Positions 43,325-61,456 of a stretch of 64,000 bases of DNA are shown here, piece after piece. The first letter of the stretch is position 1, and each line of letters opens with the position of its first letter. The position numbers and the translations under genes were made by a program. The DNA is taken from contig CAJANN010000226.1 in the NCBI GenBank assembly GCA_903941095.1, positions 374 through 64,373 of the forward strand, in the 5' to 3' direction. Below the pieces are notes generated by a model that had not been told where the DNA came from, ran no database searches, and worked only from the letters and a program-made list of their open reading frames with translations. The DNA comes from an uncultured Rhodospirillaceae bacterium (lineage in GTDB: Bacteria > Pseudomonadota > Alphaproteobacteria > Rhodospirillales > Magnetospirillaceae).

Positions 43325-45340
43325 GTGGCGTTCATGCTGATCGCCAGCGCCCTGCTGTCGTTGCCGTTGCTGTCGCTGTTCGTCATCGCCTTCGGACGAT
43401 GGGGGCGGGCGCATTCCGTCGCCTATGCCGGCTGCTTCGTCGCCGCGGTTTCGCTGTTTTCCGGCGGGCTGGAACATCTGGGCGGGGTGTGGGGGGCGCC
43501 GTCCCTGGTCCTGCCCATCGGATTGCCGTGGCTGAAGGCGCATTTCCGCATCGACAATTTGTCGGCCCTGTTCCTGCTGGTGGTCAATTTCTCGGCGGCC
43601 GTCGCCTCGGCCTTCGCCATCGGCTATTCGGCCCATCTGCCCGAACGGCGCCGGGTGACGCCGTTCTATCCGCTGTTCCTGTTCGGCATGAACACCGTGC
43701 TGGTCGCCGACGACGCCTTCGTCTTCCTGGTGGCCTGGGAGTTCATGTCGCTGGCTTCGTGGCTGATGGTGCTGGCCGATCACCAGAAGGCGGAAAACCG
43801 CCGGGCCGCCGGCATCTATCTGATCATGGCGGTGTTCGGCACCTTCTGTCTGCTGCCGGCCCTGGGCCTGATGGCGGGTCCCGGCGGCGATTATACCTTT
43901 GCCGCCATGCGGCTGCGCGACATGGGCGGCGTGGTCGGGTTCCTGGTGGTGCTGCTGACGGTGCTGGGGACCGGCTCCAAGGCCGGGCTGATGCCGCTGC
44001 ACGTCTGGCTGCCGCTGGCCCATCCCGCCGCGCCCAGCCATGTCTCGGCGCTGATGAGCGGGGTGATGACCAAGGTCGCCCTGTACGGGCTGATCCGCGT
44101 CCTGTTCGACCTGCACGGCGAAGTCGGCTGGCAATGGGGGGCGGCGCTGATGGTGGTGGGCGGCGTTACCGCGGTGATGGGCGTGCTGTACGCGGTCATG
44201 CAGGACGACCTGAAGACCCTGCTGGCCTATTCCACCGTCGAGAATGTCGGCGTGGTGGTCATCGGACTGGGCCTGGCCCTGGCCTTCAAGGCCGACGGCG
44301 AGAACCTGCTGGCGGCGCTGGCGCTGGTGGCCGGGCTTTACCACATCGTCAACCATTCGGTATTCAAGACCCTGCTGTTCCTGGGGGCCGGCGCGGTGAT
44401 CTCGGCGACCGGGCGGCGGTCCATTTCCGCCCTGGGCGGGCTGCTCAACCGCATGCCGTGGACCGGCGCCGCCTTTCTGGTGGCGGCGGCCTCGGCCTCG
44501 GCCCTGCCGCCGCTCAACGGTTTCGTGTCGGAATGGCTGATCCTGCAGACCCTGTTCAAGGGGCCGGGCCTGCCCCACTGGGCGATGAAGTTCGGCGTGC
44601 CGGTGGTCGGCGCCCTGCTGGCCCTGGCGGCCGCCCTGGCCGCCACCTGTTTCGTCCGCGCCTATGGCGTCGCCTTTCTGGGCCGGCCGCGCAGCGACGC
44701 CGCCCGCGAGGCCGGCGACGTCAGCTTCGGCATGCGCATGTCCCTGGTGGTGCTGGCCGTCGCCTGCGTGGTGCTGGGAGTGATTCCGGTCACCGTCACC
44801 GACGCCCTGTCCCATGTGGTCCAGCCGCTGACCGGGGTGTCGTTCGCGGTGTCGGCCGATCTGGGCTGGCCGTGGCTGTCTCCGGTTTCGTCGCATCGCG
44901 GATCTTATTCCGGCACCTTGCTGGTGATGGTCGGGCTGGCGCTGTTCGGGGTGGTGGTGGTGCTGGTGCACCGTTTCGGCACCGAGGCGCTGCGGCGCTC
45001 CGACGCCTGGGATTGCGGCCACCGCGAGGACATCCCCCAGACCCAATATACCGGGCCGTCCTTCTCGCAGCCGCTGCGGCGGGTGTTCGGCGGCACCGTC
45101 TTCCGGGCGCGCGAAAGCGTGCAGATGCCGCCCCCGGGCGACGATTCCCCCGCCCGCCACAGCGTTTCGATGATCGATCCGGTGTGGGACGGCCTGTACG
45201 CCCGCCTGGGGCTGGCGGTGGAATGGGTGGCCGATCAGGTCAACCGCCTGCAGTTCCTGACGGTGCGCGGCTATCTGCTGATGATGTTCTGCACCCTGGT
45301 CTTCATGCTTCTGGTGGTCGCGATGAGGCAGCAATCATGA
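43325..45340 (+). CDS. Ehr/HyfB-like antiporter-type membrane subunit (NuoL/MrpA family)
   Basis: WEFMSLAS, SKAGLMPLHVWLPLAHPAAPSHVSALMSG, LAYSTVENVG, LPPLNGFVSEW. Confidence 0.9.
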   Translation: MAFMLIASALLSLPLLSLFVIAFGRWGRAHSVAYAGCFVAAVSLFSGGLEHLGGVWGAPSLVLPIGLPWLKAHFRIDNLSALFLLVVNFSAAVASAFAIGYSAHLPERRRVTPFYPLFLFGMNTVLVADDAFVFLVAWEFMSLASWLMVLADHQKAENRRAAGIYLIMAVFGTFCLLPALGLMAGPGGDYTFAAMRLRDMGGVVGFLVVLLTVLGTGSKAGLMPLHVWLPLAHPAAPSHVSALMSGVMTKVALYGLIRVLFDLHGEVGWQWGAALMVVGGVTAVMGVLYAVMQDDLKTLLAYSTVENVGVVVIGLGLALAFKADGENLLAALALVAGLYHIVNHSVFKTLLFLGAGAVISATGRRSISALGGLLNRMPWTGAAFLVAAASASALPPLNGFVSEWLILQTLFKGPGLPHWAMKFGVPVVGALLALAAALAATCFVRAYGVAFLGRPRSDAAREAGDVSFGMRMSLVVLAVACVVLGVIPVTVTDALSHVVQPLTGVSFAVSADLGWPWLSPVSSHRGSYSGTLLVMVGLALFGVVVVLVHRFGTEALRRSDAWDCGHREDIPQTQYTGPSFSQPLRRVFGGTVFRARESVQMPPPGDDSPARHSVSMIDPVWDGLYARLGLAVEWVADQVNRLQFLTVRGYLLMMFCTLVFMLLVVAMRQQS

Positions 45341-46284
45341 CGGCGGTCCTGTGGCAGATGGTCCAGGTCGTCCTGGTGGTGGCGCTGGCGCCGCTGGTCA
45401 CCGGCTGGGTGCGCTGGGTCAAGGCGCGGCTGAACGGGCGGCGCGGGGCGTCGCCCTGGCAGCCCTATCGCGATTTCTACCGCCTTTTGCAGAAAGAGGC
45501 GGTGGTCGCGCACTCGGCGTCGTGGGTGTTCCGGGCCGCCCCCTACATCACCTTCGCCTCGGTGTGGCTGGCGGCCTGCATCATTCCGACCTTCACCACC
45601 AACATCTTTCTGGCGCCGGCCGCCGACCTGATCGCCCTGGTCGCCCTTCTGGCCATCGGCCGGTTCTGGACGGCGCTGGCCGGCATGGATGTCGGCACCG
45701 CCTTCGGCGGCCTGGGCGCCAGCCGCGAGATGATGATCGCCTCGCTGGCGGAACCGGCCATGCTGATGGTGTCGTTCTCGCTGTCGCTGGTGTCGGGGAC
45801 CACGCAGCCGGCGCAGATCGTCGCCTTCGTGCTGACCGGCGAAATCGGTATCGAGGTCAGCCTGGGTCTGGCCCTGGCCGCCCTGTTCATGGTGGCCATC
45901 GCCGAAAACGGCCGCATTCCCATCGACAATCCCGCCACCCATCTGGAACTGACGATGGTGCACGAGGCGATGGTGCTGGAATATTCCGGCCGCCATCTGG
46001 CGATGGTCGAAGCGGCGCAGATGGTTCGGCTGACCCTGTTCATGGCGTTGATCGCCTGCCTGTTCGCTCCGTGGGGCATGGCCATGCCCGGGGCCGGGCC
46101 GGTGGGGGTGACGGTGGGCATGCTGGCCTTCCTGGCCAAGATGTTCATCCTGGCCACCGCCCTGGCATGGTTCGAGACCGCCATCGCCAAGATGCGGGTG
46201 TTCCGCTATGCCGACTTCCTGGGCGGCGCGCTGCTGCTGGGGCTGCTGGCCACCATCTTCCTGTACGTGTCCGAGGCGGTGTGA
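45337..46284 (+). CDS. Ehr/HyfC-like subunit (NuoH family)
   Basis: GRRGASPWQPYRD, GGLGASRE, AENGRIPIDNP, MVHEAMVLEYSG. Confidence 0.9.
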   Translation: MTAVLWQMVQVVLVVALAPLVTGWVRWVKARLNGRRGASPWQPYRDFYRLLQKEAVVAHSASWVFRAAPYITFASVWLAACIIPTFTTNIFLAPAADLIALVALLAIGRFWTALAGMDVGTAFGGLGASREMMIASLAEPAMLMVSFSLSLVSGTTQPAQIVAFVLTGEIGIEVSLGLALAALFMVAIAENGRIPIDNPATHLELTMVHEAMVLEYSGRHLAMVEAAQMVRLTLFMALIACLFAPWGMAMPGAGPVGVTVGMLAFLAKMFILATALAWFETAIAKMRVFRYADFLGGALLLGLLATIFLYVSEAV

Positions 46285-46949
46285 TGGCTCAGCAGTTCTC
46301 TTACGATCTTGCCCACCTGATCGGCGCCACCGTGCTGATGGCCGGGATGGGGCTGCTGTATCAGCGCCGCCTGTTCGCCGTGCTCAACACCTTCGCCTTT
46401 CAGGCGGTGGCCCTGGCGGCAGCGGCGGCCTGGCAGGCCCATGTGCAGCATGCGCCGCACCTGTACGCCACCGCCGCCATCGCCCTGATCTTCAAGGCCA
46501 TCGCCGTGCCGTTGGCCCTGCATTGGCTGGTCGAGCGCCTGGGCATTCACCGCACCGTGGAAACGGCCCTGTCCATCGGCTGGACGATGATCGTCGGCGT
46601 CGCCCTGGTGGCGCTGTCGATCATGCTGGTTCTGCCGGTGACGGCCAAGGCGGCGGCGCTGACCCGCGAATCGCTGTCCATCGCCATGAGCGTGGTGCTG
46701 CTGGGCATGCTGATGATGATCACCCGGCGCAACGCCGTCACCCAGGTGGTGGGGTTCATGGCGCTGGAGAACGGCCTGATCCTGGCGGCGGTTTCGGCCA
46801 AGGGCATGCCCCTGGTGGTCGAGATTTCCATCGCCTTTTCGGTTCTGGTGGCGATGACGGTGTTCGGAATCTTCTTCTTCCGCATCCGCGAGCGGTTCGA
46901 CACGCTGGATCTCAATTACCTGGAAACCTACCGGGGAGACCGGCAATGA
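46284..46949 (+). CDS. Ehr/HyfE-like membrane subunit
   Basis: GMLMMITRRNAVTQVVGFMALENG, MPLVVE. Confidence 0.88.
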   Translation: MAQQFSYDLAHLIGATVLMAGMGLLYQRRLFAVLNTFAFQAVALAAAAAWQAHVQHAPHLYATAAIALIFKAIAVPLALHWLVERLGIHRTVETALSIGWTMIVGVALVALSIMLVLPVTAKAAALTRESLSIAMSVVLLGMLMMITRRNAVTQVVGFMALENGLILAAVSAKGMPLVVEISIAFSVLVAMTVFGIFFFRIRERFDTLDLNYLETYRGDRQ

Positions 46950-48442
46950 CCGTGTGGGCGGCCCTGGAGGCCGGAGCGGCCAACCCCTTGATGTGGATTC
47001 TGGCCATTCCCCTGGGATCGGCCGGGTTCCTGGCCGTGCTGCCCCATTGGCGGCTGGCGGCGTGGCTGAACGTCGCGGCGGCGGGGACCACGTTCCTGGC
47101 TTCGCTGGTGCTGTTCCGGCACCGGCCCGAGCCGACGCACCTGCTGTTCATCGATGATTTCAATATCTATCTGGTGGCCCTGACCGCTTTCGTCGGCTTC
47201 ACCACGTCGATCTTCTCGGCCGCCTATATCGGCCGCGAGACACAGGCGGACCGCCTGTCCGACGTGCATCTGCGGTTCTACCACGCGATGTACCAGGCCT
47301 TCCTGTTCACCATGCTGCTGGCCCTGGTGGCCAACAATACCGGGGTGATGTGGGTGGCGGTCGAGGCGGCGACGCTGACCACCGTGCTGATGGTCAGCCT
47401 GTACCGCACGCGCGAGGCCATCGAGGCGGCGTGGAAATATTTCATCCTGTGCTCGGTGGGAATCGGGCTGGCCCTGTTCGGCACCACCCTGGTCTATCTG
47501 GCCGCCCAGCCGGTGATGGGGGACGGCGCCGACGCGATGGCATGGACGCTGCTGATCGGCAAGGCCCATGCCTTCCATCCCGACCTGCTGAATCTGGCCT
47601 TCGTCTTCCTGCTGGTCGGCTACGGCACCAAGGTCGGGCTGGCGCCGCTGCATGCCTGGCTGCCCGACGCCCATGCCGAGGGGCCGACGCCGATCTCGGC
47701 GGTGCTGTCGGGGCTGCTGCTGAATGTGGCCCTGTATGCCCTGCTGCGCTTCAAGATGCTGCTCGCCGCCAACGGCAAGACCCTGGAGCCCGGTCCCCTG
47801 ATGATCATGATGGGGCTGTCCAGCCTGTTCCTGTCGGCGTTCATGCTGTATCGCCGCGGCGACATCAAGCGGCTGTTCGCCTATTCGTCGATCGAGCACA
47901 TGGGGGTCATCACCTTCGCCTTCGGCCTGGGCGGCCCGGTGGCCAACTTCGCCGGGCTGATGCACATGACCATGCATTCGCTGACCAAGTCGGGAATCTT
48001 CTTCGCCGTCGGCATCATCACCCAGAATGCCGGCACCAAGCGTCTGGCCGACATCCGGGGCCTGACCGCCAGCCATCCGGTGCTGGGCTGGGGTTTCGTC
48101 ATCGCCGTGCTGGCCATTGCCGGGCTGCCGCCGATGGGGGTGTTCATGAGCGAGTTCCTGGTGGTGACATCGGCGTTCGCCCGTCAGCCGCTGCTGGCTT
48201 TGCCCCTGGCGGTGGGGCTGCTGCTGGCCTTCGGCGCGCTGGCGATCCGGCTGCAGGGCATGGCCTTCGGCGCGCCGCCGCCGGCGCGGCGCGTCCACAG
48301 TCAGGCCCGGGTCGGACTGATGTCGACGGTGCTGGCCTATGTGCCGCTGTGGCTGCATGTGGCGCTGGTGGTGGTGGCCGGCCTGTGGCTTCCCGGACCG
48401 CTGGTGGCCTGGTTCGAAGCCGTGGCGAAATTGTTGGGGTGA
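46946..48442 (+). CDS. Ehr/HyfF-like antiporter-type subunit
   Basis: WVAVEAATL, EAAWKY, GYGTKVGLAPLHAWLPDAHAEGP, KRLFAYSSIEH. Confidence 0.9.
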   Translation: MTVWAALEAGAANPLMWILAIPLGSAGFLAVLPHWRLAAWLNVAAAGTTFLASLVLFRHRPEPTHLLFIDDFNIYLVALTAFVGFTTSIFSAAYIGRETQADRLSDVHLRFYHAMYQAFLFTMLLALVANNTGVMWVAVEAATLTTVLMVSLYRTREAIEAAWKYFILCSVGIGLALFGTTLVYLAAQPVMGDGADAMAWTLLIGKAHAFHPDLLNLAFVFLLVGYGTKVGLAPLHAWLPDAHAEGPTPISAVLSGLLLNVALYALLRFKMLLAANGKTLEPGPLMIMMGLSSLFLSAFMLYRRGDIKRLFAYSSIEHMGVITFAFGLGGPVANFAGLMHMTMHSLTKSGIFFAVGIITQNAGTKRLADIRGLTASHPVLGWGFVIAVLAIAGLPPMGVFMSEFLVVTSAFARQPLLALPLAVGLLLAFGALAIRLQGMAFGAPPPARRVHSQARVGLMSTVLAYVPLWLHVALVVVAGLWLPGPLVAWFEAVAKLLG

Positions 48443-48448
48443 CGGGTC

Positions 48449-49969
48449 ATGATGGGAAACATCACCCTGATGGAGTTTCTGTCGGCGGGACGCGAGGTGC
48501 CGGGGCACCGGCCGTGGCCGCGCTATCAGCTGGACGCCCGCACCTGGCGCCGTCTGGCCGAGCAGATGACGGTGTCGAACTGGGAGATCCTGGCCGAATG
48601 GGGCGAGCCGGCCGAAGTGCACGTGCTGCTGCGCGGCGAGGATTCAGGGGCCATCGCCGTGGCCTCGCATCCCTGCCCCGACGGCAAGTTCTTCGCCCTG
48701 GGGCAGGCGCGGCCATCGGCGATCCGGCTGGAACGGGCCATCCGCGACCTGTGGGGGCTGGTGCCCGAAGGGCTGGAGGATCAGCGCCCGTGGCTGGATC
48801 ACGGCCGCTGGGGGGTGCGCCACCCGCTGGGAAAGCCGCGCGAGACCGATGGCGTGCCCCATGTCTATCGCTTCCACACCGCCGAGGGCGACGGGCTGCA
48901 CCAGATCCCGGTGGGGCCGGTTCATGCCGGGGTGATCGAACCCGGGCACTTCCGCTTTCACTGCCAGGGCGAGACGGTGGTCCGTCTGGAAGAGCGGCTG
49001 GGCTATGTCCACAAGGGGATCGAGGGTCTGCTGGCCGGCAAGCCGGTGGCCGATGCCGCCCGGATCGTCGCCCGGGTTTCCGGCGATGCGACGGTGGCCT
49101 ATTCCCTGGCCTTCGCCCACGCCGTCGAGGCGGCGCTGGGGCACGAGCCACCGCCGCGGGCGGTCTGGCTGCGGGCGTTGATGGCGGAATGCGAGCGGTT
49201 GGCCAACCATCTGTTCGACATCGGCGCCATCTGCAACGACGCCGCCTTCGCCATCATGCTGTCGCACCTGGGGGCGCTCAGGGAAAAGGTGCTGCGGGCC
49301 AATCAGGCCTGTTTCGGCCATCGCCTGCTGATGGACCGGGTCGTTCCGGGCGGTGTCGCCGCCGACCTGCCCGACGACGGCGTGCCGATCCTGCGGCGCA
49401 TGGCGCACGAGGTCGGCAAGGGCTTCGAACGCGCCATGCAGCTTTACGACAACACGCCGTCCCTGCTGGACCGCACCACCGGCACCGGCGTGCTGACCGG
49501 CGCCCTGGCCCATCGGTTCGGGGCCGGCGGCTTCGTCGGGCGGGCGTCGTCGCGCGGGCTGGATGCCCGGCGCAATCCCGGCTATGCCCCCTATGACGAT
49601 CTGGCCTTCACCATTCCGGTGATGGCCGACGGCGACGTCCATGCCCGCCTGACGGTCCGGGCCGAGGAAATCCGGGCATCGCTGGGGTTGCTGGATCAGA
49701 TCCTGACCGCGTTGCCGGCCGGGCCGGCGGCGGCTCCGCTGGCCCTGCGCGGCGCGGGGGAGGGGTTGGGAATCGTCGAAAGCTTCCGGGGCGAGGTGGT
49801 CGTCTGGGTCCGGGTGTCGGAAAGCGGCAAGGTGGTCCGGTGCCATCCGCATGATCCGTCGTGGTTCCAGTGGCCGCTGCTGGAGGCGGTGATCGAGGGC
49901 AACATCGTGGCCGACTTCCCGCTGTGCAACAAATCGTTCAACTGTTCCTATTCCGGCCAGGATTTGTGA
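48449..49969 (+). CDS. Hydrogenase large-subunit homolog (HyfG/NuoCD-like, EhrL) lacking Ni-binding motifs
   Basis: PVGPVHAGVIEPGHFRF, GYVHKGIE; RVSGD replaces RxCGxC; C-terminus DFPLCNKSFNCSYSGQDL replaces DPCxxC. Confidence 0.9.
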   Translation: MMGNITLMEFLSAGREVPGHRPWPRYQLDARTWRRLAEQMTVSNWEILAEWGEPAEVHVLLRGEDSGAIAVASHPCPDGKFFALGQARPSAIRLERAIRDLWGLVPEGLEDQRPWLDHGRWGVRHPLGKPRETDGVPHVYRFHTAEGDGLHQIPVGPVHAGVIEPGHFRFHCQGETVVRLEERLGYVHKGIEGLLAGKPVADAARIVARVSGDATVAYSLAFAHAVEAALGHEPPPRAVWLRALMAECERLANHLFDIGAICNDAAFAIMLSHLGALREKVLRANQACFGHRLLMDRVVPGGVAADLPDDGVPILRRMAHEVGKGFERAMQLYDNTPSLLDRTTGTGVLTGALAHRFGAGGFVGRASSRGLDARRNPGYAPYDDLAFTIPVMADGDVHARLTVRAEEIRASLGLLDQILTALPAGPAAAPLALRGAGEGLGIVESFRGEVVVWVRVSESGKVVRCHPHDPSWFQWPLLEAVIEGNIVADFPLCNKSFNCSYSGQDL

Positions 49970-49970
49970 C

Positions 49971-50513
49971 ATGCCCCTGATCCCGCCCATCGCCCGGATC
50001 ATCGCCCGCCACCTGCTGAAGGGGCCGCTGACCATGAAGGGCGCCCCCGAGCCCGACCCTGCCGGTCTGGTGGAACTGGGCGACGCCCTGGGGTTGGAAA
50101 GCCGGGTCCGCCTGGGGCGCTCGCTGTCGATCCGCGCGGTCGATGCCGGCAGCTGCAACGGATGCGAACTGGAAATCCATGCGGTCAACAATCCGGTCTA
50201 CGACCTGGAACGCTTCGGCATCCGTTTCGTCGCCAGCCCGCGCCACGCCGACGTGCTGCTGGTGACCGGGCCGGTCAGCTGGAACATGGCCGAGGCGTTG
50301 CGCCGCACCTACGACGCCACGCCGGCGCCGCGCTGGGTGGTGGCGATGGGCGATTGCGGCAAGGATGGCGGCTGCTTCGCCGGTTCCTACGCCGTGGCCG
50401 GCGGTGCATCGGCCGTCATTCCGGTGGACCTGCACATCCCCGGTTGCCCGCCGACGCCGACCGCGCTGCTGTCGGGGCTGCTGGCCCTGCTGCAGACGGT
50501 GTCGGCGAAATAG
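49971..50513 (+). CDS. NuoB/HyfI-like Fe-S small subunit (EhrS)
   Basis: GSCNGCELE, SPRHADVLLVTG, GDC, IPGCPP. Confidence 0.92.
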   Translation: MPLIPPIARIIARHLLKGPLTMKGAPEPDPAGLVELGDALGLESRVRLGRSLSIRAVDAGSCNGCELEIHAVNNPVYDLERFGIRFVASPRHADVLLVTGPVSWNMAEALRRTYDATPAPRWVVAMGDCGKDGGCFAGSYAVAGGASAVIPVDLHIPGCPPTPTALLSGLLALLQTVSAK

Positions 50514-50519: not shown

Positions 50520-51542
50520 TCAGATGGCGAAGGCCCGTTCCGCCTGACGGATCTGGCCGATTCCCTGGATCATTTCCGAGGCCATGAAGTCGGCGCGCTT
50601 GACCGGGCCGCCCATGTTGGGGTGCGGGAACATCCGGGCGAACGAGTTCATCTTCACCGTCAGGCCGCACAGCACCGACCCGATGGTGACGTGATAGCGT
50701 TCGATCATCGTCTTGACCTGACGGAATTCTTCCTGGCTCAGGTTGCCCCACATCTCGCGGGTGCGGCGTTCGAAGATCTCCAGCCGGCCGGTGATGGCCG
50801 CCGACATGTTGTTGATGGTGTCCTCGATGGTGTCGCAGGTCTTCATCAGGCCGGGATCCTGCTTCAGCTGGAAATGCGTGCGGATCGGCTTCAGCGATTC
50901 GACGCAGGCGGTGAAATAAGGTTCCAGCCGGTCCAGGCAATGGCGGAAATAGGACAGCGACAGGAAGGTGTCGCCGTAATCCTCAAGGAAGCGGGGGACC
51001 TCGAAAATCTCGATGTTCAGGCTGGCGGCCATCTGTTCCAGCCGCTGGCGGGCCTTGCGCACGTCGGGATCGCGGAACAGGTGCAGCAGGTCCTCGTAGG
51101 TGTCGATGTTCACCGCTTCGTCGGCATAGATCAGCTTCAGCAGCGGCCGGGTAAACAGCATCATGTACTTGGTCAGCTCGGTGGCTTTTTCCGGCGACAG
51201 CTTCAGGGCCGAATAATCGTTCACCGGAATGCCGTGCTCGCGCAGGCTGATGCGCAGGGAATAGACGTCGTAGCTGGGCAGCAGGGCCAGGCGGCGCAGG
51301 ACGGCGTGGTCGGGATGCAGTTCCATGTCCGGCCAGTTGAACATGCGCGGCAAGCTGTCGATGTCGACCTGACCCGAGCCGGTCTGGGCATCCTGAAAGA
51401 TTTCGATCACGCTTTTCAGGCGCACGTTCTTGATGAGTTTGGCGCTTTGCAGCGCAGGAGTTTGCAGCGGTATGATCGAAAGCGGCAGGACGAACATGGA
51501 ATCCATGTCGCTGTCTGCTATCGGACTCAGCTCGTCGTCCAT
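50520..51542 (-). CDS. Conserved-looking hypothetical protein (340 aa)
   Basis: Long ORF with host-like codon usage and balanced composition; no motif recognised. Confidence 0.8.
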   Translation of the reverse strand: MDDELSPIADSDMDSMFVLPLSIIPLQTPALQSAKLIKNVRLKSVIEIFQDAQTGSGQVDIDSLPRMFNWPDMELHPDHAVLRRLALLPSYDVYSLRISLREHGIPVNDYSALKLSPEKATELTKYMMLFTRPLLKLIYADEAVNIDTYEDLLHLFRDPDVRKARQRLEQMAASLNIEIFEVPRFLEDYGDTFLSLSYFRHCLDRLEPYFTACVESLKPIRTHFQLKQDPGLMKTCDTIEDTINNMSAAITGRLEIFERRTREMWGNLSQEEFRQVKTMIERYHVTIGSVLCGLTVKMNSFARMFPHPNMGGPVKRADFMASEMIQGIGQIRQAERAFAI

Positions 51543-51690: not shown

Positions 51691-52134
51691 CTATGCGGCG
51701 TGCTGGCGTTTGGCGGCGCGGGCCCGTTCGGCGTCTTCGGGGGAATAGGCCTTGCCCTGCCACAGCAGGTGATAGCCGGTTTCCTCGTTGCCGTTCTCGC
51801 ACAGGGCCAGAACGTCGGCGAACAAGGGCTGGAAGGTTTCCGAGCGGTGCGATTCCTCGTGTTCAGCGAAGCTGCGCCAGAAGGTGACGATCAGGGCCTC
51901 GCGGTCCTTCAGCGGCGATTCCACCGTCTGGCCGATGGTCGATCCCTCGTTCGAGATGAAGCCGGCATTCAGGCAGACGAACCCGCCGACGAACCCGGTG
52001 TCGGAATGGTAGGTCTTGACGTTCTCACACAGCAGGGCGACCCGCTCCTGCAGGTCGTCGGTGTCGAATCCGGGCTTCAGCAGGACGCGGTTGACGGTGA
52101 TGACGCCATCGGCGGGAAATCCGGAAATCAGCAT
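51691..52134 (-). CDS. Small sulfur oxygenase reductase (SOR)-like/ABM-fold protein
   Basis: GFVG, TFW-x5-HEESHR, E-x-x-Y and C36 align by eye with SOR Cys31/His86/His90/Glu114. Confidence 0.65.
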   Translation of the reverse strand: MLISGFPADGVITVNRVLLKPGFDTDDLQERVALLCENVKTYHSDTGFVGGFVCLNAGFISNEGSTIGQTVESPLKDREALIVTFWRSFAEHEESHRSETFQPLFADVLALCENGNEETGYHLLWQGKAYSPEDAERARAAKRQHAA

Positions 52135-52149
52135 GGCGGGCTCCTTAAA

Positions 52150-52192
52150 AAGAATTGTCTAATATATTTAAGAAACTAATTCTTATTGTCAA
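52150..52192 (-). promoter_or_regulatory. AT-rich promoter/operator upstream of the SOR-like gene
   Basis: Minus-strand TTGACA at 52187-52192; palindrome TAAGAA-N5-TTCTTA (52169-52185); outer aagaatt...aattctt repeat. Confidence 0.6.
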
Positions 52193-53735: not shown

Positions 53736-54230
53736 CTAGCCGGTCTGCCGGGCCTTGTCCTGGCTGCGCTTGACCACGGCGACCCCCAGCACGCCCAGGG
53801 CGATGCCCCAGATCGGCGCGGTGTTGACCAAGGCTGCGATGATGGCCGGAGCCTGGGCCGGTTCGGCGACGATGGCCCACGAGACGGCGATCATGGTGGC
53901 GGTCCAGGTCAGGGCGACGGCATAGCCGAAGGTCGGCCGCCAGCGCCTGACATAGACGTCGTCCGAGCGGATTTCTGCCCGCAGCGAGGAATTGACCTGG
54001 GCCAGGGTGGCTCTGGTTTCGGCGCTGTCCAGATCGGTCATGCGTTCCAGGTGGCGGTTGGCCTCGGCGACCTGTTCGGGGGGAATGGCCTGTTCGCCCA
54101 GGGCCTTGCCGACCTGGGTCAAGGCCCCGGCCGCCGCCCTGGCGGCGGGGTGGTCGACCGATTCCAGGGCCTGCCCCACCGCCTTGACCAGCAGCGGCAG
54201 GCCGATCGAGGCCAGAAAAGCGGGAAGCAT
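53736..54230 (-). CDS. Putative holin (GTA 3TM-holin-like)
   Basis: D-x-YVRRWRPTFGY followed by two TMs; last gene of the phage-like operon, next to a cell-wall hydrolase. Confidence 0.7.
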   Translation of the reverse strand: MLPAFLASIGLPLLVKAVGQALESVDHPAARAAAGALTQVGKALGEQAIPPEQVAEANRHLERMTDLDSAETRATLAQVNSSLRAEIRSDDVYVRRWRPTFGYAVALTWTATMIAVSWAIVAEPAQAPAIIAALVNTAPIWGIALGVLGVAVVKRSQDKARQTG

Positions 54231-54235
54231 GGCGG

Positions 54236-54715
54236 TTACTCCACGTCGTTGTAGAACAGGTGGTGGCCGATCTCGGCCGAAGGGTCTACCCGTCTGGCCC
54301 AGGCCGGCAGGCTGCCCCGGCGGTGATAGTGGGTGGCGCCGCCGGTGGGGTCGTCCAGGCTGCCGCCGATGGCGCGGCGGGCGATGCGGATGCAGATGCG
54401 GAACTGGCGGTCGGCCGGTCCGACCTGCCGCAGCTTGGCGGCATTGGGGTCGGTGTCGTTCCAGCACGAGAACTGCCAGGGCTTGCGGCATACCGTTTCG
54501 ACCGAATTTCCCCACCAGTACTGGCCGTTGCGCTCCTTGGCCCGGGCGACGCGGTTCAGCACCACGGCGGCCACGGCTTCCTTGCCGCGCACCGGCTCGC
54601 CGCGGGCTTCTCCCCACAGGGTGCGGGCCAGGATGTCCACCGCCGATCCCGGTGCGGGGGCGGTTTCCTGGGATTCGCGGTCGGGTTCGACGGCGATGTC
54701 GACGATCGGGTTCAT
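54236..54715 (-). CDS. Cell-wall hydrolase (SleB/Hydrolase_2 family), putative endolysin
   Basis: LARTLWGEARGE (catalytic Glu), VVLNR, WQFSCWN, GATHYH, IGHHLFY. Confidence 0.88.
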   Translation of the reverse strand: MNPIVDIAVEPDRESQETAPAPGSAVDILARTLWGEARGEPVRGKEAVAAVVLNRVARAKERNGQYWWGNSVETVCRKPWQFSCWNDTDPNAAKLRQVGPADRQFRICIRIARRAIGGSLDDPTGGATHYHRRGSLPAWARRVDPSAEIGHHLFYNDVE

Positions 54716-55017
54716 CCGCGCCCCCCGCCGCCCTGGGCGGCGTCCAGCTTGGCTTCGATCCGCACCAGATGTTCGGTCAGCCGGCGTTCGACATCCTTCA
54801 GATAGCCGGTGGTGGCATAGCTTTTCGCCACTTCCAGCTTATAGGCGGCCAGGGCTTCGCGCAGTTGCGCCAGTCCCGAGGCCAGCCTGTCCTCGATCAG
54901 GTCGTCGCGGCCGTCGCAGCTTTGGCGGTTGGTCCACACCAGCCACAGCAGGCCGCCCAGGGCCGGCAGTTCGACGGCGCTGACCCACCACATCAAATCG
55001 GCGCTCCAGTGGTCCAT
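54712..55017 (-). CDS. Small TM + coiled-coil protein, lysis-module associated
   Basis: N-terminal hydrophobic helix followed by a heptad pattern; stop overlaps the hydrolase start. Confidence 0.7.
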   Translation of the reverse strand: MDHWSADLMWWVSAVELPALGGLLWLVWTNRQSCDGRDDLIEDRLASGLAQLREALAAYKLEVAKSYATTGYLKDVERRLTEHLVRIEAKLDAAQGGGGRG

Positions 55018-55042
55018 CGCGGTTTCTCCTTGAGGATTGGGG

Positions 55043-56533
55043 TTACGGTGTGAAATCGCTGTCGGCCACCACGCCGCCGCCGCCCGGACGCCAGTCCCGC
55101 CGGTCGGCGCTGCCGGCCGGGGGGAGCCGGCCCAGGCGGACCGGCTGGGACAGCAGGCAGCCGGCGACGGCGTCCAGACCGTCGTCGCGGCACTTGCCGC
55201 CGGGCTGCCATTCGCGCATTTCGGCGACGAACGGCGTATCCCAGACCGAGCGATGGGCGTTCAGGGCTCCGGCGGCCAGGACGGCGTCGAAGGCGTCGAC
55301 GATGCGCTGGTCCTTGGCCTTGCGGCTGGCGACCTCGATCACCGCGCACGGGACCCCCTGGGCGGCCAGCTCGCGGCGCAGCAGGCCGGGCAGGAAGCGG
55401 CCCAGGCCGTTGGTTTCCAGCGTCACCGAGGGCAGGAACAGGTCGCGGGCGAATTCCGCCACCTGACGGCACAGCTGGCTGGCTTCGTCGGTGTCGGCGC
55501 GGGCCGGGTCGTGGGTCAGATAGCGGACGCGATGCAGCCAATAACCGCCCTGTTCGTCGGTGAAGACGGCGGCCACCACGCTGGAATCGCCCTTGCCGGG
55601 GGCGCCGTAGGCCGGATCCCACCAGCACGACACCGATACCAGCCGCGTTTCGCCCAGCGACAGGACCGGCAGGCGGTTGCCTTCGGCATAGGCCAGTTCG
55701 GTCTCGTACAGTTTCAGGCGGTCGGGATCCAGGCGGCCGTCGGCGATGTTGACCGGGCGCAGCATCATCTGGCTGTCGAACTTGTTGGGGCCGGTACGCC
55801 GCCGGATGCCGGCGATCCTGTCGGCGGGGAATCGTTCGGGCCAGGCCGACCGGCCCTTGCCGTCCAGCAGCGGGATTTCCAGCCGGTCGAAGCCGTCCAG
55901 GAACGGGCGCTGCTCGCCGGCCTCCAGCCGGGCCGCGGCGGCGTAGATGGTATAGAAGGAATGCGGGGTGCCGACGTAAAGCTGCAGGCCGCCCGGCACC
56001 AGGACATATTCGGTCTCGCCCAGCCGTTCGCGCAAATCCACCCGCTTGGGGGCGCTGTCGCAGGTGTTGGGGACCTCGACATCGTCGCAGATCAGGATGT
56101 CGGCGCGGCTGCCGGTGATGTTGGCGCCGATGCCCTTGGCGATCATCGACGGGTCGCGCAATTCTCCCGGCCGGTTGACGGTGAACTGGTCCGACGCCCA
56201 TTGCTCGCGCCGGGGCGGCTTCAGCCCCTGCGTCAGCGGGTGGCGTTCGACGATGCGCTTGACGTTGCGGACCATCTTCTTGGCCAGGGCGAAGTCGGCG
56301 GCCAGGACCATGATGCGCAGGTTGGGCTCGGCCATCAGCACCCAGGCGCAGAACAGGCCGACGATGGTGGACTTGCCGGAATTGCGGAAGGCCATCAGCA
56401 GCAGTTCGCGGTGGCGCCCGCGCCAGCGCGCCGCCAGCCAGCGGGCCATGCGCAAATGGTGGCGCGGCGTCGGCAGACCCACCTTCTCGTTCCAGATCCA
56501 GACGAATTCGGGAAAGTCGACGCCGTTCATCAT
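55043..56533 (-). CDS. Phage terminase large subunit (T7 gp19-like)
   Basis: Walker A LMAFRNSGKS, Walker B ILICDDVE, YVGTPH coupling motif, WWDPA and DDGLDA nuclease motifs. Confidence 0.92.
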   Translation of the reverse strand: MMNGVDFPEFVWIWNEKVGLPTPRHHLRMARWLAARWRGRHRELLLMAFRNSGKSTIVGLFCAWVLMAEPNLRIMVLAADFALAKKMVRNVKRIVERHPLTQGLKPPRREQWASDQFTVNRPGELRDPSMIAKGIGANITGSRADILICDDVEVPNTCDSAPKRVDLRERLGETEYVLVPGGLQLYVGTPHSFYTIYAAAARLEAGEQRPFLDGFDRLEIPLLDGKGRSAWPERFPADRIAGIRRRTGPNKFDSQMMLRPVNIADGRLDPDRLKLYETELAYAEGNRLPVLSLGETRLVSVSCWWDPAYGAPGKGDSSVVAAVFTDEQGGYWLHRVRYLTHDPARADTDEASQLCRQVAEFARDLFLPSVTLETNGLGRFLPGLLRRELAAQGVPCAVIEVASRKAKDQRIVDAFDAVLAAGALNAHRSVWDTPFVAEMREWQPGGKCRDDGLDAVAGCLLSQPVRLGRLPPAGSADRRDWRPGGGGVVADSDFTP

Positions 56534-56856
56534 TCATCCTCCTGAGGGTCGTCGTCGAACTCGGTCAAGGCCGCCCGGGCCTGGGCCAGCAGACGGTCGA
56601 TGCCGGTCTCGGCCGGGTCGGCGGTCTCGGCGCGGCCTTCCGCCCAGCGGACCAGCTTGAGCAGCAGTTCGACATGGGCCAGGGCGGCCTTGGCGGCGGC
56701 GTGCCAGGCGGCGAAGCCCTTGGCGTCGGCCGGCGGTTCGTCGCCGGTGAAACGTTCGTAACCGTCGAGCGCCATGCGGACGCGGGCCGGCAAGGCCCCC
56801 CGCAGGCCGGACCGCAGGGTCTCGATGTCGTCGGGCGACCATTGTTCGTCAGCCAT
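56530..56856 (-). CDS. Hypothetical protein, candidate terminase small subunit
   Basis: 108-aa helical protein with acidic tail; stop overlaps the large terminase ATG. Confidence 0.55.
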   Translation of the reverse strand: MADEQWSPDDIETLRSGLRGALPARVRMALDGYERFTGDEPPADAKGFAAWHAAAKAALAHVELLLKLVRWAEGRAETADPAETGIDRLLAQARAALTEFDDDPQEDE

Positions 56857-57115
56857 GCAACGTCCCCCGCAGCATGGCGATCCGGGCATCCACGTCGGCC
56901 AGCCACGCCTTGCCCGCTTCGGTCAGCGCGGCTTCCCGCAGACGGCGGTTGGTGACGGTGGCCTCCAGGGCGGCGATTTCCGCCAGGATGGCCCTGCGGG
57001 CGGCCTCGGCCGCCAAGGCGGGGCGGGCCGCTTCGATCTCGGCCAGTTCCGCCCCGGTCAACGGCACCTGACGCGCGTCTCCGGTTTCGGCATTCACTTC
57101 GATACGGAAGGTCAT
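56849..57115 (-). CDS. Small phage protein, candidate tail-fibre chaperone
   Basis: 88 aa immediately after the tail fibre gene and coupled to the next gene; assignment by position only. Confidence 0.5.
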   Translation of the reverse strand: MTFRIEVNAETGDARQVPLTGAELAEIEAARPALAAEAARRAILAEIAALEATVTNRRLREAALTEAGKAWLADVDARIAMLRGTLHG

Positions 57116-57117
57116 GA

Positions 57118-58944
57118 TCAGGCGCTCCTCTTGCCGCGATACAGGATGAACGTGCCGCTCACACCCGTTCCCCCGGCGTCATGAAACCGGACGGCCACAA
57201 GAACTTCCTGGGTAGAGCGGTAGCCGGAAAAAGTATCATTGCGCAATTCGCCGGTAGGGCCGTGTCTTGATGCGGTCATTCCGTATATCTTGTGGTACGC
57301 ATTGGCGGATGGGTTCGGGATGAAGACATGACCGACATAGCCGTCAGCCGTGGATGCCACGTTTGATCCATTGTTTGACAGTTTCAGCGTGGACAGACCG
57401 GAGCCGCTGTTGCCGGAACCGGGGGAAGAGCTGCTGGCCATCGCGACCATTGCTTCCTGATATCCGGATGTCTGATAGGCAGGCCCGGCAGTGCCAAAGC
57501 GGAACCCCAGCTCTTGACCTGATCCGGTATAGACGCCGTCGAAAACCACCATGTAATCGTAGCCGGAAACCAGTCCGGTGAAGTCCACGGTCGCCGCCCC
57601 GCTTGCCGTCGTGCTGCTGACGAATTCCCATGCCCCGGCACTGACAGCGGCCCAGGTCTGATCGCCGCGCAGATAGGTCGACGAACCGGCCGATCCGGAC
57701 CCGAGCCGGGCCGTGGCAATGGTCCCAGAGGCGATGTCGGCGGCGGTGTGGGTGTGCACGGCGGGTGCGGCGCCGTCCGCCTTGGCGCCCTGGGCCGCCG
57801 TGGCGTAATCCGATGCCGCCGTTGTCGCCGCCGTGCCCAGTCCCAGGCTGGTGCGGGCGGTCGCCGCGCTGGACAGGTCGGACAGATTGTTGGCCGCCGC
57901 CAGATAGCCGGCGCCCGAGACATAGGCCGCGACCCAGGCCGATCCGGTATGGACCTTCATGGCCCCGGAAGCGGTGTTGAAATAGATCGAGCCGGCCACC
58001 AGGGCGTTGCCGTCGTTGTCGACGACGGGGTCGGACGCCTGGGCGCCCAGATAGCGGTCGTCGAAGCTGTCGAAGGCGGCCAGGGTGCTGTCCCGTGCGG
58101 CCTCGGCGGCGATCTTGGCGGACGCGGCGTCGGCGGCAGACGTGGAAGCCTCGCCGGCCTTGGTGGCCGCAATGCCGGCCTGGGTGGTCGCCGTGGCCGC
58201 CGAAGCGGCAGCGGCGGTCTCGGACAGTCCAGCAGCGGTTTCTGAAGCCAGGGCGGCGCCGGCGCTGGCTTCGGCGTCCACAGCCTTGGCGGTGGTGATC
58301 CCGGCTTGCGTGGTGGCGATGGCGGCGGCGGCGCTGACGGTCGAGGCGCTGGCCGAGGCAGCGGACGCAGATGCGGACGCGGACGCCGCCGAGCCCGAGG
58401 CGGACGCGGCCGATCCGGAAGCGGCGGCGGCAGCGGCATCGACCGCGGCCAGGGTGACGGCGAATTCCGCCGGGTCGTTGGTCAGGCCCGATCCGTCTGC
58501 GTTCCAGCCGATGGCCTTGCCGGGGGCCGGCTCGGGCAGGGTCAGGTCGGCATTCGAGGCGCTGGTGGGGGCACGGGCGACGGCGCGGGCGGCATCCTCG
58601 GCCACCTGCTGGATGGCGGCGGTCTGGATGTCGAATTCATCGTTCAGGGTCTTGGCGCGGATCACGCCGTCGGCCTGGAAATCGGTGGTGCGGCCCACCG
58701 CCATGCGCCGGCGCAGGGTGATGCGGGCGCCGGCGGCCGGCGGAACGGAAAACAGCACCGAGCCGCCGGCCGAGATGCCGGCCCCCGATACCGAAAAGCC
58801 GGTCTCCCGGCGGACCGAATCCTGCCAGACTTCCATGTCCTCGGGGCGGAAGATGGGGAAGGGATAGGTGAAGGCGGCCTGCACCCCGTCGGCGACATAG
58901 GCGATGCGCGGGGCGACGGCACTGATCTGGATATGTTCTGTCAT
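57118..58944 (-). CDS. Podovirus-type tail fibre protein (608 aa)
   Basis: T7-gp17-like N-terminal anchor (YVADGVQAAFTYPFPIF...RTTDF), Ala/Ser linker, FDDRYLGA..DP..DNDGNAL motif, NNLSDL..ATARTSLGLG, HTH fibre repeat, beta-rich tip. Confidence 0.88.
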   Translation of the reverse strand: MTEHIQISAVAPRIAYVADGVQAAFTYPFPIFRPEDMEVWQDSVRRETGFSVSGAGISAGGSVLFSVPPAAGARITLRRRMAVGRTTDFQADGVIRAKTLNDEFDIQTAAIQQVAEDAARAVARAPTSASNADLTLPEPAPGKAIGWNADGSGLTNDPAEFAVTLAAVDAAAAAASGSAASASGSAASASASASAASASASTVSAAAAIATTQAGITTAKAVDAEASAGAALASETAAGLSETAAAASAATATTQAGIAATKAGEASTSAADAASAKIAAEAARDSTLAAFDSFDDRYLGAQASDPVVDNDGNALVAGSIYFNTASGAMKVHTGSAWVAAYVSGAGYLAAANNLSDLSSAATARTSLGLGTAATTAASDYATAAQGAKADGAAPAVHTHTAADIASGTIATARLGSGSAGSSTYLRGDQTWAAVSAGAWEFVSSTTASGAATVDFTGLVSGYDYMVVFDGVYTGSGQELGFRFGTAGPAYQTSGYQEAMVAMASSSSPGSGNSGSGLSTLKLSNNGSNVASTADGYVGHVFIPNPSANAYHKIYGMTASRHGPTGELRNDTFSGYRSTQEVLVAVRFHDAGGTGVSGTFILYRGKRSA

Positions 58945-58955
58945 GGTCGGGTCCC

Positions 58956-60887: not shown

Positions 60888-61456
60888 GACCGCACCTCGA
60901 CCAGGGGGAAGCTGGTGATGGAGGACGGCACGTCCTGCTGGCCGTCGATCAGCTTGGCGCGGCGGAACTCGTCTTCGGCCAGCCGGTGCAGGAACTCGGT
61001 GCGGCTGGTGCTTTCGGTCAGCGGGATGCAGAACTCGGCGGCCATGCGGGCGATCAGCGCCTGGTCGAAGAAGGGCGGGAACGACAGTTCGTCGGGGCGG
61101 AAGACATAGGTCAGCACCACGCCGTCCTCGACGTTGCAGTGCAGCCGCGAGGCGGCGATGCGGTAATCCAGGCCGAAGCCGCGTTCACCGACGCCGGCCG
61201 ACAGGGCGCGCAGGAAGTCGGCCGGCAACTGGTAGGCGGCGCTGTAATCGGCCACCGGCTGGGCGGCCAGACGCGGCAAGGTGACCTGCCCGGTGGCGAA
61301 GTTCCACGGATGCGACGACAGCAGGGCGTCGCGCAGGGCCGGATAAAGATTGGCGCAGACCTCGGACTCGGCGGTTCCCTCGTCGAACGAGGCGATGGTC
61401 GAGGCCCCCAGTTTCAGCAGGGCGCGCGAACACAGCGCAATGGCGGACAGGGCCAT
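60884..61456 (-). CDS. Tail tubular protein A/adaptor (T7 gp11/P22 gp4-like)
   Basis: CSRALLKLGA, LLSSHPWNFA, YQLPADFLR, PPFFDQALIARMAAE. Confidence 0.85.
   Translation of the reverse strand: MALSAIALCSRALLKLGASTIASFDEGTAESEVCANLYPALRDALLSSHPWNFATGQVTLPRLAAQPVADYSAAYQLPADFLRALSAGVGERGFGLDYRIAASRLHCNVEDGVVLTYVFRPDELSFPPFFDQALIARMAAEFCIPLTESTSRTEFLHRLAEDEFRRAKLIDGQQDVPSSITSFPLVEVRS

What the first reader, a model, noticed from the sequence alone, without database searches (positions are those of the whole stretch)
51691..52192. Half-size sulfur oxygenase reductase-like protein retaining the Fe triad and persulfide Cys
Seen: C36, GFVG, TFW...H92-EES-H96 and E118-x-x-Y. Established: archaeal SOR uses Cys31-persulfide plus a His86/His90/Glu114 iron site, with GFVG and TFWKDWKDHEEMHR in its N-terminal half. 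The residue offsets (+5, +6, +6, +4) are consistent. The gene has its own AT-rich promoter with a palindromic operator. Inference: a minimal non-heme-iron sulfur/persulfide enzyme under dedicated repression, possibly linked to the DsrN-like gene.
Basis: partly seen in the sequence, partly recalled or inferred. Interest (0 to 1): 0.6.

Follow-up and report, generated by a model that had tools for sequence, protein, structure and literature searches.

The report
Half-size sulfur oxygenase reductase relative
This small, stand-alone gene encodes a one-domain relative of the catalytic half of the sulfur-oxidising enzyme SOR; it keeps SOR's iron-binding and key cysteine residues and occurs almost only in bacteria that carry both the Sox and Dsr sulfur-oxidation systems, so it is an untested candidate for a new sulfur enzyme.

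Summary
Window 51694-52134 (-) encodes a 147-aa protein with C36, GFVG47-50, TFW84-86, H92-x3-H96, C112 and E118-x2-Y121.

- **Homology:** profile-profile comparison aligns these residues with SOR C31, GFVG, TFW, H86, H90, C101, E114 and Y117 (prob 93.8 %, E 1.7e-7, 127 columns). A family profile searched against PDB sequences returns SOR as the nine best matches (tenth E 1.8).
- **Fold:** a single ABM/DABB ferredoxin-like domain, pLDDT 91.7, predicted to form the usual homodimeric barrel.
- **Position among relatives:** the family resembles each SOR half and generic ABM proteins more than these resemble each other. This fits a pre-duplication-like form of SOR.
- **Conservation:** the two His are lost only together.
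- **Distribution:** rare (8 of 301 sampled genomes of the phylum). All 8 carry DsrA and 7 carry SoxB. Within the window's genus the 10 carriers are exactly the 10 genomes with both.
- **Gene unit:** monocistronic, with its own promoter-like region and terminator.

Not supported: a conserved palindromic operator, and linkage to the DsrN/CobB-like gene, which lies 40 kb away. Iron binding and activity are inferred only.

No paper on this family was found. The scan reached the same reading on three other genomes.

The parts
51691..52134 (-). CDS (147 aa plus stop) of the half-size SOR relative; C36, H92, H96, C112, E118
   Evidence: 4405 homologues at E<=1e-3; hhalign to the SOR N-half prob 93.8 %; AF2 pLDDT 91.7
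52141..52146 (-). Shine-Dalgarno AAGGAG, 6 nt before the ATG
   Evidence: read directly from the sequence
52161..52192 (-). Promoter-like region: TTGACA (52192-52187) and TATATT (52166-52161). The spacing is 20 nt, so the pairing is uncertain; AAATAT lies at 17 nt. TTGAC(A/T)...(A/T)ATTAG recurs upstream of orthologues in other classes
   Evidence: the strict sigma-70 scan found no site
52147..52187 (-). Inverted repeat AATAAGAATT / AATTCTTTTT (10-nt arms, 9 paired, 21-nt loop) between the -35-like box and the SD; possible operator, weakly supported
   Evidence: 13 of 300 shuffles reach it; not conserved in L006/L008/L015
51591..51609 (-). Intrinsic-terminator-like hairpin followed by a T run, 82 nt after the stop; makes the gene monocistronic
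   Evidence: 1 site found; 1.2 expected in shuffles, so position rather than count is the argument

Best explanation
The gene encodes a cytoplasmic, single-domain member of the ABM/DABB (dimeric alpha+beta barrel) superfamily that is specifically homologous to the catalytic N-terminal half of sulfur oxygenase reductase. Two copies are predicted to pair through strands beta2 and beta4 into one barrel, the equivalent of one two-domain SOR subunit, giving two symmetric active sites. Inferred mechanism: H92 and H96 (one face of helix 89-96) and E118 (start of strand 118-122) form a 2-His-1-carboxylate mononuclear non-heme iron site. C36 on helix 1 carries sulfane sulfur as a persulfide or polysulfide, and iron-bound O2 oxidises that sulfur to sulfite, with or without SOR-like disproportionation. 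C112 (SOR C101) is auxiliary. The setting is Sox + reverse-Dsr sulfur oxidisers, which pass zero-valent sulfur into the cytoplasm as persulfide. There the enzyme would be an O2-dependent side route or safety valve for sulfane sulfur. Shown here: homology, fold, residue conservation, co-occurrence, gene unit. Inferred: metal, substrate, chemistry, physiological role.
For: - **Single-sequence searches.** In Pfam and PDB every listed hit is SOR; in NCBIfam SOR is the best of two. All are sub-threshold.
- **Family profile against PDB.** The nine best hits are all SOR, E 0.0015-0.075; the only other match is at E 1.8.
- **hhalign.** Family vs SOR N-half: prob 93.8 %, E 1.7e-7, 127 columns, pairing C36-C31, H92-H86, H96-H90, C112-C101, E118-E114 and Y121-Y117 (whole SOR 89.7 %). 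Control against 14 generic ABM proteins: only 65.7 %, 83 columns, without the HxxxH pairing.
- **Bridging members.** P0193 passes Pfam's own SOR cut-off (28.2 vs 25 bits). P0123 (59 % identical to this protein) hits SOR at E 9.5e-5.
- **Role of these residues in SOR.** His86, His90 and Glu114 bind the iron, and Cys31 is essential (PMC7398979).
- **Conservation in 24 diverse members.** C36 21, H92 19, H96 19, E118 22, C112 20, W86 24. H92 and H96 are lost only together (5 sequences), and E118 only with them.
- **Model.** pLDDT 91.7, beta-alpha-beta-beta-alpha-beta. ABM folds reach Z up to 14.2. SOR 2cb2 scores Z 11.4, rmsd 2.4, and covers more of the model (124 residues) than the ABM entries (86-121 aligned).
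- **Homodimer.** ipSAE 0.92, best of 3 controls 0.01. That mark was reached by 20 of 30 proteins solved as pairs of one chain and 1 of 23 solved as single chains. Runs agree in at least 97 % of contacts; partner pLDDT at least 91. My own alignment and the riding Fe differ from the calibration, and solved ABM dimers exist, so the pass may reflect likeness only.
- **Distribution.** 8 of 301 sampled genomes of the phylum carry the gene. All 8 have DsrA (55 of 301 overall) and 7 have SoxB over cut-off (40 of 301). 7 of the 13 Sox+Dsr genomes carry it against 1 of 288 others (Fisher 3e-10). In the genus, the 10 carriers of 22 are exactly the 10 genomes with both.
- **Sulfur neighbours where neighbours exist.** A divergent ArsR+rhodanese regulator in two Thioalkalivibrio species. 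TusA and a SoxA-like cytochrome in the P0141 clade.
- **Constraint.** Cross-class identity is 66-73 %, against 53-57 % for DsrA and 54-59 % for SoxB in the same genome pairs.
Against: - No activity, metal content or structure has been measured for any member.
- This protein itself scores far below the SOR cut-offs (11 vs 25 bits in Pfam; 12.9 vs 400 in NCBIfam).
- Structural aligners place the model on the C-terminal, non-catalytic half of SOR (residues 124-301), and generic ABM enzymes score higher (Z 14.2 vs 11.4). Fold alone therefore does not single out SOR.
- I had no model coordinates, so the geometry of H92/H96/E118/C36 was not measured.
- SOR C104 has no counterpart.
- The hollow 24-mer that encloses SOR chemistry is not shown here.
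- Six of 13 Sox+Dsr genomes lack the gene, so it is not a core pathway part.
- Genomes in the co-occurrence counts are kin. The within-genus pattern may be a single gain or loss.
- In the P0141 clade the gene is translationally coupled to a HemN/HemW/ChuW-like radical SAM gene, which hints at haem.
Confidence: 0.55

Rival explanations
1. It is a sulfane-sulfur binding, carrier or sensing protein rather than an oxygenase. C36 (and C112) take up persulfide sulfur in the cytoplasmic relay (rhodanese/TusA/DsrE type), and the His/Glu site is structural or a sensor metal site.
For: C36 and C112 are conserved. TusA lies directly downstream in the P0141 clade. A rhodanese-fused regulator is adjacent in Thioalkalivibrio. 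Occurrence is tied to the rDsr pathway, which depends on persulfide relays.
Against: The strict co-conservation of H92, H96 and E118, a classical catalytic facial triad in SOR, is unexplained by a pure carrier. Known sulfur carriers have other folds (established knowledge of the TusA, DsrE and rhodanese families).
Confidence: 0.15
2. It is an ABM-family enzyme unrelated to sulfur chemistry: an IsdG/MhuD-like haem-binding or haem-degrading protein, or a cofactor-independent monooxygenase acting on a quinol or polyketide-like substrate. The SOR-like residues are then superfamily heritage.
For: The best structural matches are SnoaB-type and other ABM oxygenases (Z 12-14), and IsdG/IsdI appear among the Foldseek hits. 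Seven of 24 family members hit Pfam ABM. N15, W86 and H96 sit where I recall the IsdG Asn/Trp/His triad (W-to-H spacing 10); this is recalled, not tested. A HemN/HemW/ChuW-like radical SAM gene overlaps the gene start in the P0141 clade.
Against: The sequence-profile signal goes to SOR, not to IsdG or other ABM structures. hhalign to generic ABM is weaker and does not pair HxxxH. H92, E118 and C36 are not needed in IsdG-type enzymes yet are conserved here. The distribution follows Sox+Dsr rather than haem uptake or antibiotic clusters. The main-clade genes have no haem or polyketide neighbours.
Confidence: 0.15
3. It is a degenerate relic or fragment of a full-length SOR gene with no function of its own.
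For: It has half the length of SOR, and its similarity is confined mainly to the N-half.
Against: There are 4405 homologues of the same length. Cross-class identity is 66-73 %, above DsrA and SoxB in the same genomes. The start, SD and terminator are intact. It is single copy and uninterrupted in every genome hit. No full SOR was found in 301 genomes of the phylum. The model is confident as a complete domain.
Confidence: 0.02

Closest known systems
Sulfur oxygenase reductase (SOR; EC 1.13.11.55; Pfam PF07682, NCBIfam NF047630; PDB 2cb2, 6m35, 6qpa, 7x9w)
   Same: Profile homology over the whole N-terminal catalytic half. Equivalents of Cys31, His86, His90, Glu114, Cys101, Tyr117 and the GFVG and TFW motifs are kept. 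It shares the ferredoxin-like alpha+beta barrel building block, and also the beta2-loop motif of the SOR C-half.
   Different: Half the size: one domain, predicted to form a homodimer in place of SOR's fused pseudo-dimer. There is no Cys104 equivalent. It scores far below the family cut-offs. It occurs in neutrophilic or alkaliphilic Sox+Dsr bacteria rather than thermoacidophiles. A 24-mer cage is not shown and activity is unknown.
ABM / dimeric alpha+beta barrel monooxygenases (Pfam PF03992; e.g. SnoaB 3kg0, ActVA-Orf6 1lq9)
   Same: Same fold (Z 14.2, rmsd 1.5 over 97 residues for SnoaB) and the same predicted beta-sheet-mediated homodimer.
   Different: Carries a conserved 20-residue loop (56-78), a C-terminal helix (132-145), the HxxxH...E triad and conserved Cys that typical cofactor-free ABM enzymes lack. 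This protein gives no Pfam ABM hit.
IsdG/IsdI/MhuD haem oxygenases (ABM superfamily)
   Same: Same fold. Asn, Trp and His lie at topologically similar positions (N15, W86, H96), judged from recalled IsdG numbering.
   Different: No sequence-level match. It has an extra His, Glu and Cys conserved, a different taxonomic and genomic setting, and no haem-uptake neighbours in the main clade.
Persulfide dioxygenase (ETHE1/PDO, Blh; metallo-beta-lactamase fold)
   Same: Functional analogue of the proposed chemistry: a mononuclear non-heme Fe on a 2-His-1-carboxylate site oxidising persulfide sulfur to sulfite (established knowledge). An MBL-fold gene lies in the same regulator-flanked cluster in Thioalkalivibrio K90mix.
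   Different: Unrelated fold and no homology.

Membership tests
SOR (PF07682 / NF047630) | Score above the curated family cut-off | tested here: not met
   Pfam 11 bits vs 25; NCBIfam 12.9 vs 400. One divergent family member, P0193, passes Pfam's cut-off (28.2 bits).
SOR (PF07682 / NF047630) | Two-domain subunit of about 300-318 residues (fused pseudo-dimeric barrel) | tested here: not met
   147 aa, one beta-alpha-beta-beta-alpha-beta domain. No fused forms of 332 aa or more were found, which is weak evidence.
SOR (PF07682 / NF047630) | Iron ligands His86, His90, Glu114 | tested here: met
   hhalign pairs H92, H96 and E118 with them. They are conserved in 19, 19 and 22 of 24 members, and the two His are lost only together. 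This was tested by alignment only; the geometry was not measured.
SOR (PF07682 / NF047630) | Essential Cys31 and auxiliary Cys101/Cys104 | tested here: inconclusive
   C36 pairs with C31 (21 of 24) and C112 with C101 (20 of 24). There is no counterpart of C104.
SOR (PF07682 / NF047630) | Hollow 24-subunit sphere | not tested
   Only a dimer was modelled.
SOR (PF07682 / NF047630) | O2-dependent sulfur oxygenase/disproportionation activity | not testable with these tools
   Needs biochemistry.
ABM / dimeric alpha+beta barrel superfamily | Ferredoxin-like beta-alpha-beta-beta-alpha-beta fold | tested here: met
   AF2 pLDDT 91.7; SnoaB Z 14.2, rmsd 1.5 over 97 residues; 57 chains at Z of 8 or more.
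ABM / dimeric alpha+beta barrel superfamily | Homodimer joined through the beta sheets | tested here: met
   Prediction only: ipSAE 0.92 vs best control 0.01, with beta2 (48-57) against beta4' (118-129). May be recalled from solved ABM dimers.
ABM (Pfam PF03992) | Score above Pfam's gathering cut-off | tested here: not met
   No ABM hit for this protein at E up to 10. Seven of 24 family members hit at E of 1 or less; P0193 scores 35.3 bits.
IsdG-type haem oxygenase | Asn/Trp/His catalytic triad and haem pocket | tested here: inconclusive
   N15, W86 and H96 exist and W86 is invariant, but their equivalence to the IsdG triad rests on recalled numbering. IsdG/IsdI appear only as fold matches and not in the sequence-profile search.

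The most novel reading that the evidence does not exclude
The family is the living single-domain form from which two-domain SOR arose by tandem duplication. It is also a working homodimeric non-heme-iron sulfane-sulfur oxygenase: a so far unrecognised cytoplasmic, O2-dependent enzyme of Sox + reverse-Dsr sulfur oxidisers, present in Alpha-, Beta- and Gammaproteobacteria and Aquificota.
Probability: 0.3. Interest if true: 0.8.

Novelty: new variant of a known kind. Interest (0 to 1): 0.62.

Why it matters
SOR has been the only known enzyme of its kind, confined mainly to thermoacidophiles, and its origin is unexplained. This is a strongly conserved half-size relative with thousands of members and no Pfam family. 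Database names are wrong or uninformative ('ligand-binding protein SH3', 'hypothetical protein') or generic (ABM). It keeps the SOR active-site residues and tracks Sox+Dsr sulfur oxidisers. If active, it would add an oxygen-dependent step to mainstream bacterial sulfur oxidation. It would also give a simple model for SOR chemistry without the 24-mer cage, and show how SOR evolved from an ABM-type dimer. It can be tested directly in genetically tractable Magnetospirillum.

Tried and rejected
- **Full-length SOR in the phylum.** NF047630 found nothing in 301 genomes or in the 14 control genomes. I therefore seeded SOR sequences from a 78-residue stretch printed.
- **Fused or longer forms of the family.** None at 332 aa or more (weak evidence, and SOR-length proteins were below that search's length window).
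- **Structure search as a discriminator.** It confirms the ABM fold but aligns SOR through its C-terminal half, so it neither supports nor refutes the N-half relationship.
- **Fe position in the complex job.** The output lists H92, H96, E118 and C36 among residues touching 'other chains' but does not say whether that is the iron or the second subunit. Not used as evidence.
- **Conserved operator.** The window's inverted repeat is marginal (13 of 300 shuffles) and absent from the closest orthologous promoters. Other lineages have their own repeats (L019/L021, L010), so no common operator emerged.
- **Link to the DsrN-like gene.** Rejected on distance: about 40 kb, with unrelated genes between.
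- **Conserved operon partners.** None in the main clade across 9 contexts.
- **Literature.** Six searches by accession, by the database name and by topic found no paper on this family. Alvin_1688 (ABM) in PMC11267869 could not be tied to the family.
- **Identity comparison.** The G136 DsrA values (24-44 %) look like a wrong-frame ORF picked by my script and were ignored.

Full report
**1. What is there**

The finding covers one gene unit.

- The ORF 51691-52134 on the minus strand gives a 147-residue protein.
- An AAGGAG ribosome-binding site lies 6 nt before the ATG.
- GC3 is 0.85, like its neighbours.
- A hairpin followed by a T run lies 82 nt after the stop (51609-51591).
There is also C112.
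- The N-terminus has no signal-peptide-like hydrophobic stretch, so the product is probably cytoplasmic (read from the sequence).

**2. Is the SOR likeness more than chance?**

- **Single-sequence searches are sub-threshold but point to SOR.** Pfam SOR E 0.19 (the only hit), NCBIfam sulfur oxygenase/reductase E 0.042 (best of two), and six PDB hits that are all SOR.
- **The protein belongs to a large, tight family.** There are 4405 proteins at E<=1e-3, and the listed ones are 147-158 aa. No Pfam domain is on record for any of the 120 listed. Sources name them 'ligand-binding protein SH3' or 'hypothetical protein', and UniRef labels some as ABM.
- **An exhaustive search adds only about 150 clusters at 50 % identity,** most of them fragments.
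- **A profile of 24 diverse members (A2), searched against all PDB sequences, returns nine SOR sequences as its nine best hits** (E 0.0015-0.075). The only other match is a GlnK protein at E 1.8. No other ABM structure appears, although dozens exist.
- **hhalign of A2 against 12 SORs** gives prob 89.7 % over 127 columns. Against the SOR N-terminal half alone it gives prob 93.8 %, E 1.7e-7.
- **That alignment pairs** N15-N9, C36-C31, GFVG-GFVG, TFW-TFW, H92-H86, H96-H90, C112-C101, E118-E114 and Y121-Y117.
- **In SOR,** His86, His90 and Glu114 ligate the mononuclear iron and Cys31 is essential. C101A and C104A lower activity about ten-fold (PMC7398979).
- **Bridging members exist.** P0193 (35 % identical) scores 28.2 bits on Pfam SOR, above the 25-bit cut-off, and also passes ABM. 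P0123 from Thermocrinis (59 % identical) hits SOR at E 9.5e-5.

**3. Controls and position among relatives**

| Comparison (hhalign) | Prob | E-value | Columns |
|---|---|---|---|
| Family vs SOR N-half | 93.8 % | 1.7e-7 | 127 |
| Family vs SOR C-half | 80.2 % | 1.4e-5 | 59 |
| Family vs 14 generic ABM proteins | 65.7 % | 5.8e-5 | 83 |
| SOR N-half vs SOR C-half | 16.8 % | 0.0015 | 27 |
| SOR N-half vs generic ABM | 8.5 % | 0.004 | 45 |

- The generic ABM proteins were taken from related genomes. That comparison does not pair the HxxxH motif.
- The match to the SOR C-half runs through the GF(V/L)GG-beta2-loop region.
- The family therefore sits between generic ABM proteins and both SOR halves. 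This is what a form close to the pre-duplication ancestor of SOR would look like.
- This is an inference from small alignments with low diversity, not a phylogeny.

**4. Fold and assembly**

- AlphaFold2 with the family alignment gives pLDDT 91.7 and a beta-alpha-beta-beta-alpha-beta domain: strands 11-19, 48-55, 79-86 and 118-122; helices 25-43, 89-96 and 101-109. A C-terminal helix spans 132-145.
- Fold searches put it firmly in the ABM/DABB superfamily: SnoaB Z 14.2, rmsd 1.5, 97 residues.
- SOR (2cb2, 6qpa) scores Z 11.4 and aligns more of the model (120-124 residues) than the ABM entries (86-121 aligned). The aligner chose the C-terminal half of SOR (124-301). Fold comparison is therefore neutral on the N-half relationship.
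- H92 and H96 lie one turn apart on one helix, and E118 opens the last strand. This is consistent with a facial triad, but I could not measure distances.
- A two-copy prediction with Fe riding along scored ipSAE 0.92 against 0.01 for the best of three controls. In the calibration, 20 of 30 proteins solved as pairs of one chain and 1 of 23 solved as single chains reached that mark.
- The three runs agree in at least 97 % of contacts, and the partner pLDDT is at least 91. My own alignment and the ligand differ from the calibration.
- The interface is beta2 (48-57) against beta4' (118-129), the classical ABM dimer. The pass may therefore reflect likeness to solved dimers.

**5. Conservation**

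- In the 24 diverse members W86 is invariant. C36 is kept in 21, H92 in 19, H96 in 19, E118 in 22, C112 in 20 and Y121 in 21.
- The five sequences that lack H92 also lack H96. The two that lack E118 lack both His. No sequence lacks just one His. This is the pattern expected for a joint metal site.
- Between this alphaproteobacterium and carriers from other families of the phylum the protein is 66-73 % identical. DsrA is 53-57 % and SoxB 54-59 % identical in the same genome pairs.

**6. Who has it, and with what**

- Named carriers are Magnetospirillum, Thioalkalivibrio, Burkholderiales, Sulfurisoma and Thermocrinis.
- In an even sample of 301 genomes of the phylum the gene occurs once each in 8 genomes from 6 families.
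- All 8 have DsrA over cut-off (55 of 301 overall). Seven have SoxB over cut-off (40 of 301). The eighth is 90 % complete.
- Thirteen genomes have both markers, and 7 of them carry the gene, against 1 of the other 288 (Fisher 3e-10).
- In the window's own genus, 10 of 22 genomes carry it. These are exactly the 10 that have both DsrA and SoxB.
- Kin are not independent, and the within-genus pattern may be one event. Even so, the association recurs across classes.
- The window's genome itself has SoxB and DsrA on other contigs.

**7. Genomic context**

- In nine main-clade contexts the gene stands alone, with 150-260 nt of flanking spacer and no shared neighbours.
- Here it lies between an unassigned 340-aa gene and a divergent TPR gene. 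A complex-I/hydrogenase-like cluster is on one side and a phage/GTA-like cluster on the other.
- Two contexts are informative:
  - In two Thioalkalivibrio species it is divergent from an ArsR-type regulator fused to a rhodanese domain. That regulator has weak similarity to the sulfite-sensing BigR, and in one species an MBL-fold gene is next to it.
  - In the divergent P0141 clade (38 % identical, with C36, H92, H96 and E118 kept) the order is: HemN/HemW/ChuW-like radical SAM, then this gene (4-nt overlap), then TusA, a SoxA-like cytochrome c and a SulP transporter.
- The radical SAM neighbour is the one hint toward haem.

**8. Promoter**

- The upstream region is AT-rich in a GC-rich genome. 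It holds TTGACA (52192-52187) and TATATT (52166-52161), 20 nt apart.
- A similar TTGAC(A/T)...(A/T)ATTAG arrangement recurs upstream of several orthologues from other genomes, with spacing of about 15-20 nt. The strict sigma-70 scan finds nothing.
It is reached by 13 of 300 shuffles and is not conserved in the nearest orthologous promoters.
- Dedicated repression is therefore possible but not supported.
- The only CobB/DsrN-family gene in the window is about 40 kb away.

**9. Verdict**

- The SOR relationship is real at the level of homology and active-site residues.
- Membership in SOR proper is not met, on length, architecture and cut-offs. The protein is best filed as an unnamed single-domain SOR-related family within the ABM/DABB superfamily.
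- The most likely function is a homodimeric non-heme-iron enzyme acting on cysteine-bound sulfane sulfur in Sox+Dsr sulfur oxidisers (confidence about 0.55).
- A sulfur carrier or sensor, and a haem or other ABM oxygenase, are the main rivals.
- Six literature searches found no description of the family.
- Earlier notes of this scan on three other genomes reached the same reading. These are not independent evidence. The checks reported here were run afresh.

Noticed in passing
window 50520-51542 (-): A 340-aa ORF directly downstream, with gene-like codon bias (GC3 0.85, GC2 0.36) but no Pfam or NCBIfam family. It is not next to the SOR-like gene in related genomes.
   Followed up: partly
window 43325-50513 (+): A complex-I / group-4-hydrogenase-like cluster: two Proton_antipo_M subunits, a Complex1_49kDa/NiFeSe-like large subunit and an Oxidored_q6 small subunit.
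   Followed up: partly
window 53736-62980 (-): A phage/GTA-like block: GTA_holin_3TM holin, Hydrolase_2 cell-wall hydrolase, 496-aa and 643-aa proteins without a Pfam hit, and a Phage_capsid_2 capsid gene.
   Followed up: partly
It lies about 40 kb from the finding. A second copy lies on another contig.
   Followed up: partly
L013:4496-9647: The divergent clade of the family (P0141) sits in an operon: HemN/HemW/ChuW-like radical SAM, SOR-like gene (4-nt overlap), TusA, SoxA-like cytochrome c, SulP transporter.
   Followed up: partly
L001:5129-5797 and L058:3047-3745: In two Thioalkalivibrio species an ArsR-type HTH fused to a rhodanese domain is divergently transcribed from the SOR-like gene. 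It is a candidate sulfur-sensing regulator. K90mix also has an MBL-fold gene beside it.
   Followed up: partly
upstream of the SOR-like gene in L019 and L021: A shared inverted repeat CTATATTA-N8-TAATATAG over the -10-like region in two genomes of one family, with a changed spacer. It is a better operator candidate than the window's own repeat.
   Followed up: no
L010:5958-5983: The Thermocrinis orthologue has an 11-of-12 inverted repeat TATAAGAATATT/AATATCCTTATA just upstream (4 of 300 shuffles). It shares the ATAAGAAT core with the window's repeat arm.
   Followed up: no
window 35317-41463 (-): Glutamate synthase large (1513 aa) and small (518 aa) subunit genes, which are ordinary housekeeping genes.
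   Followed up: no
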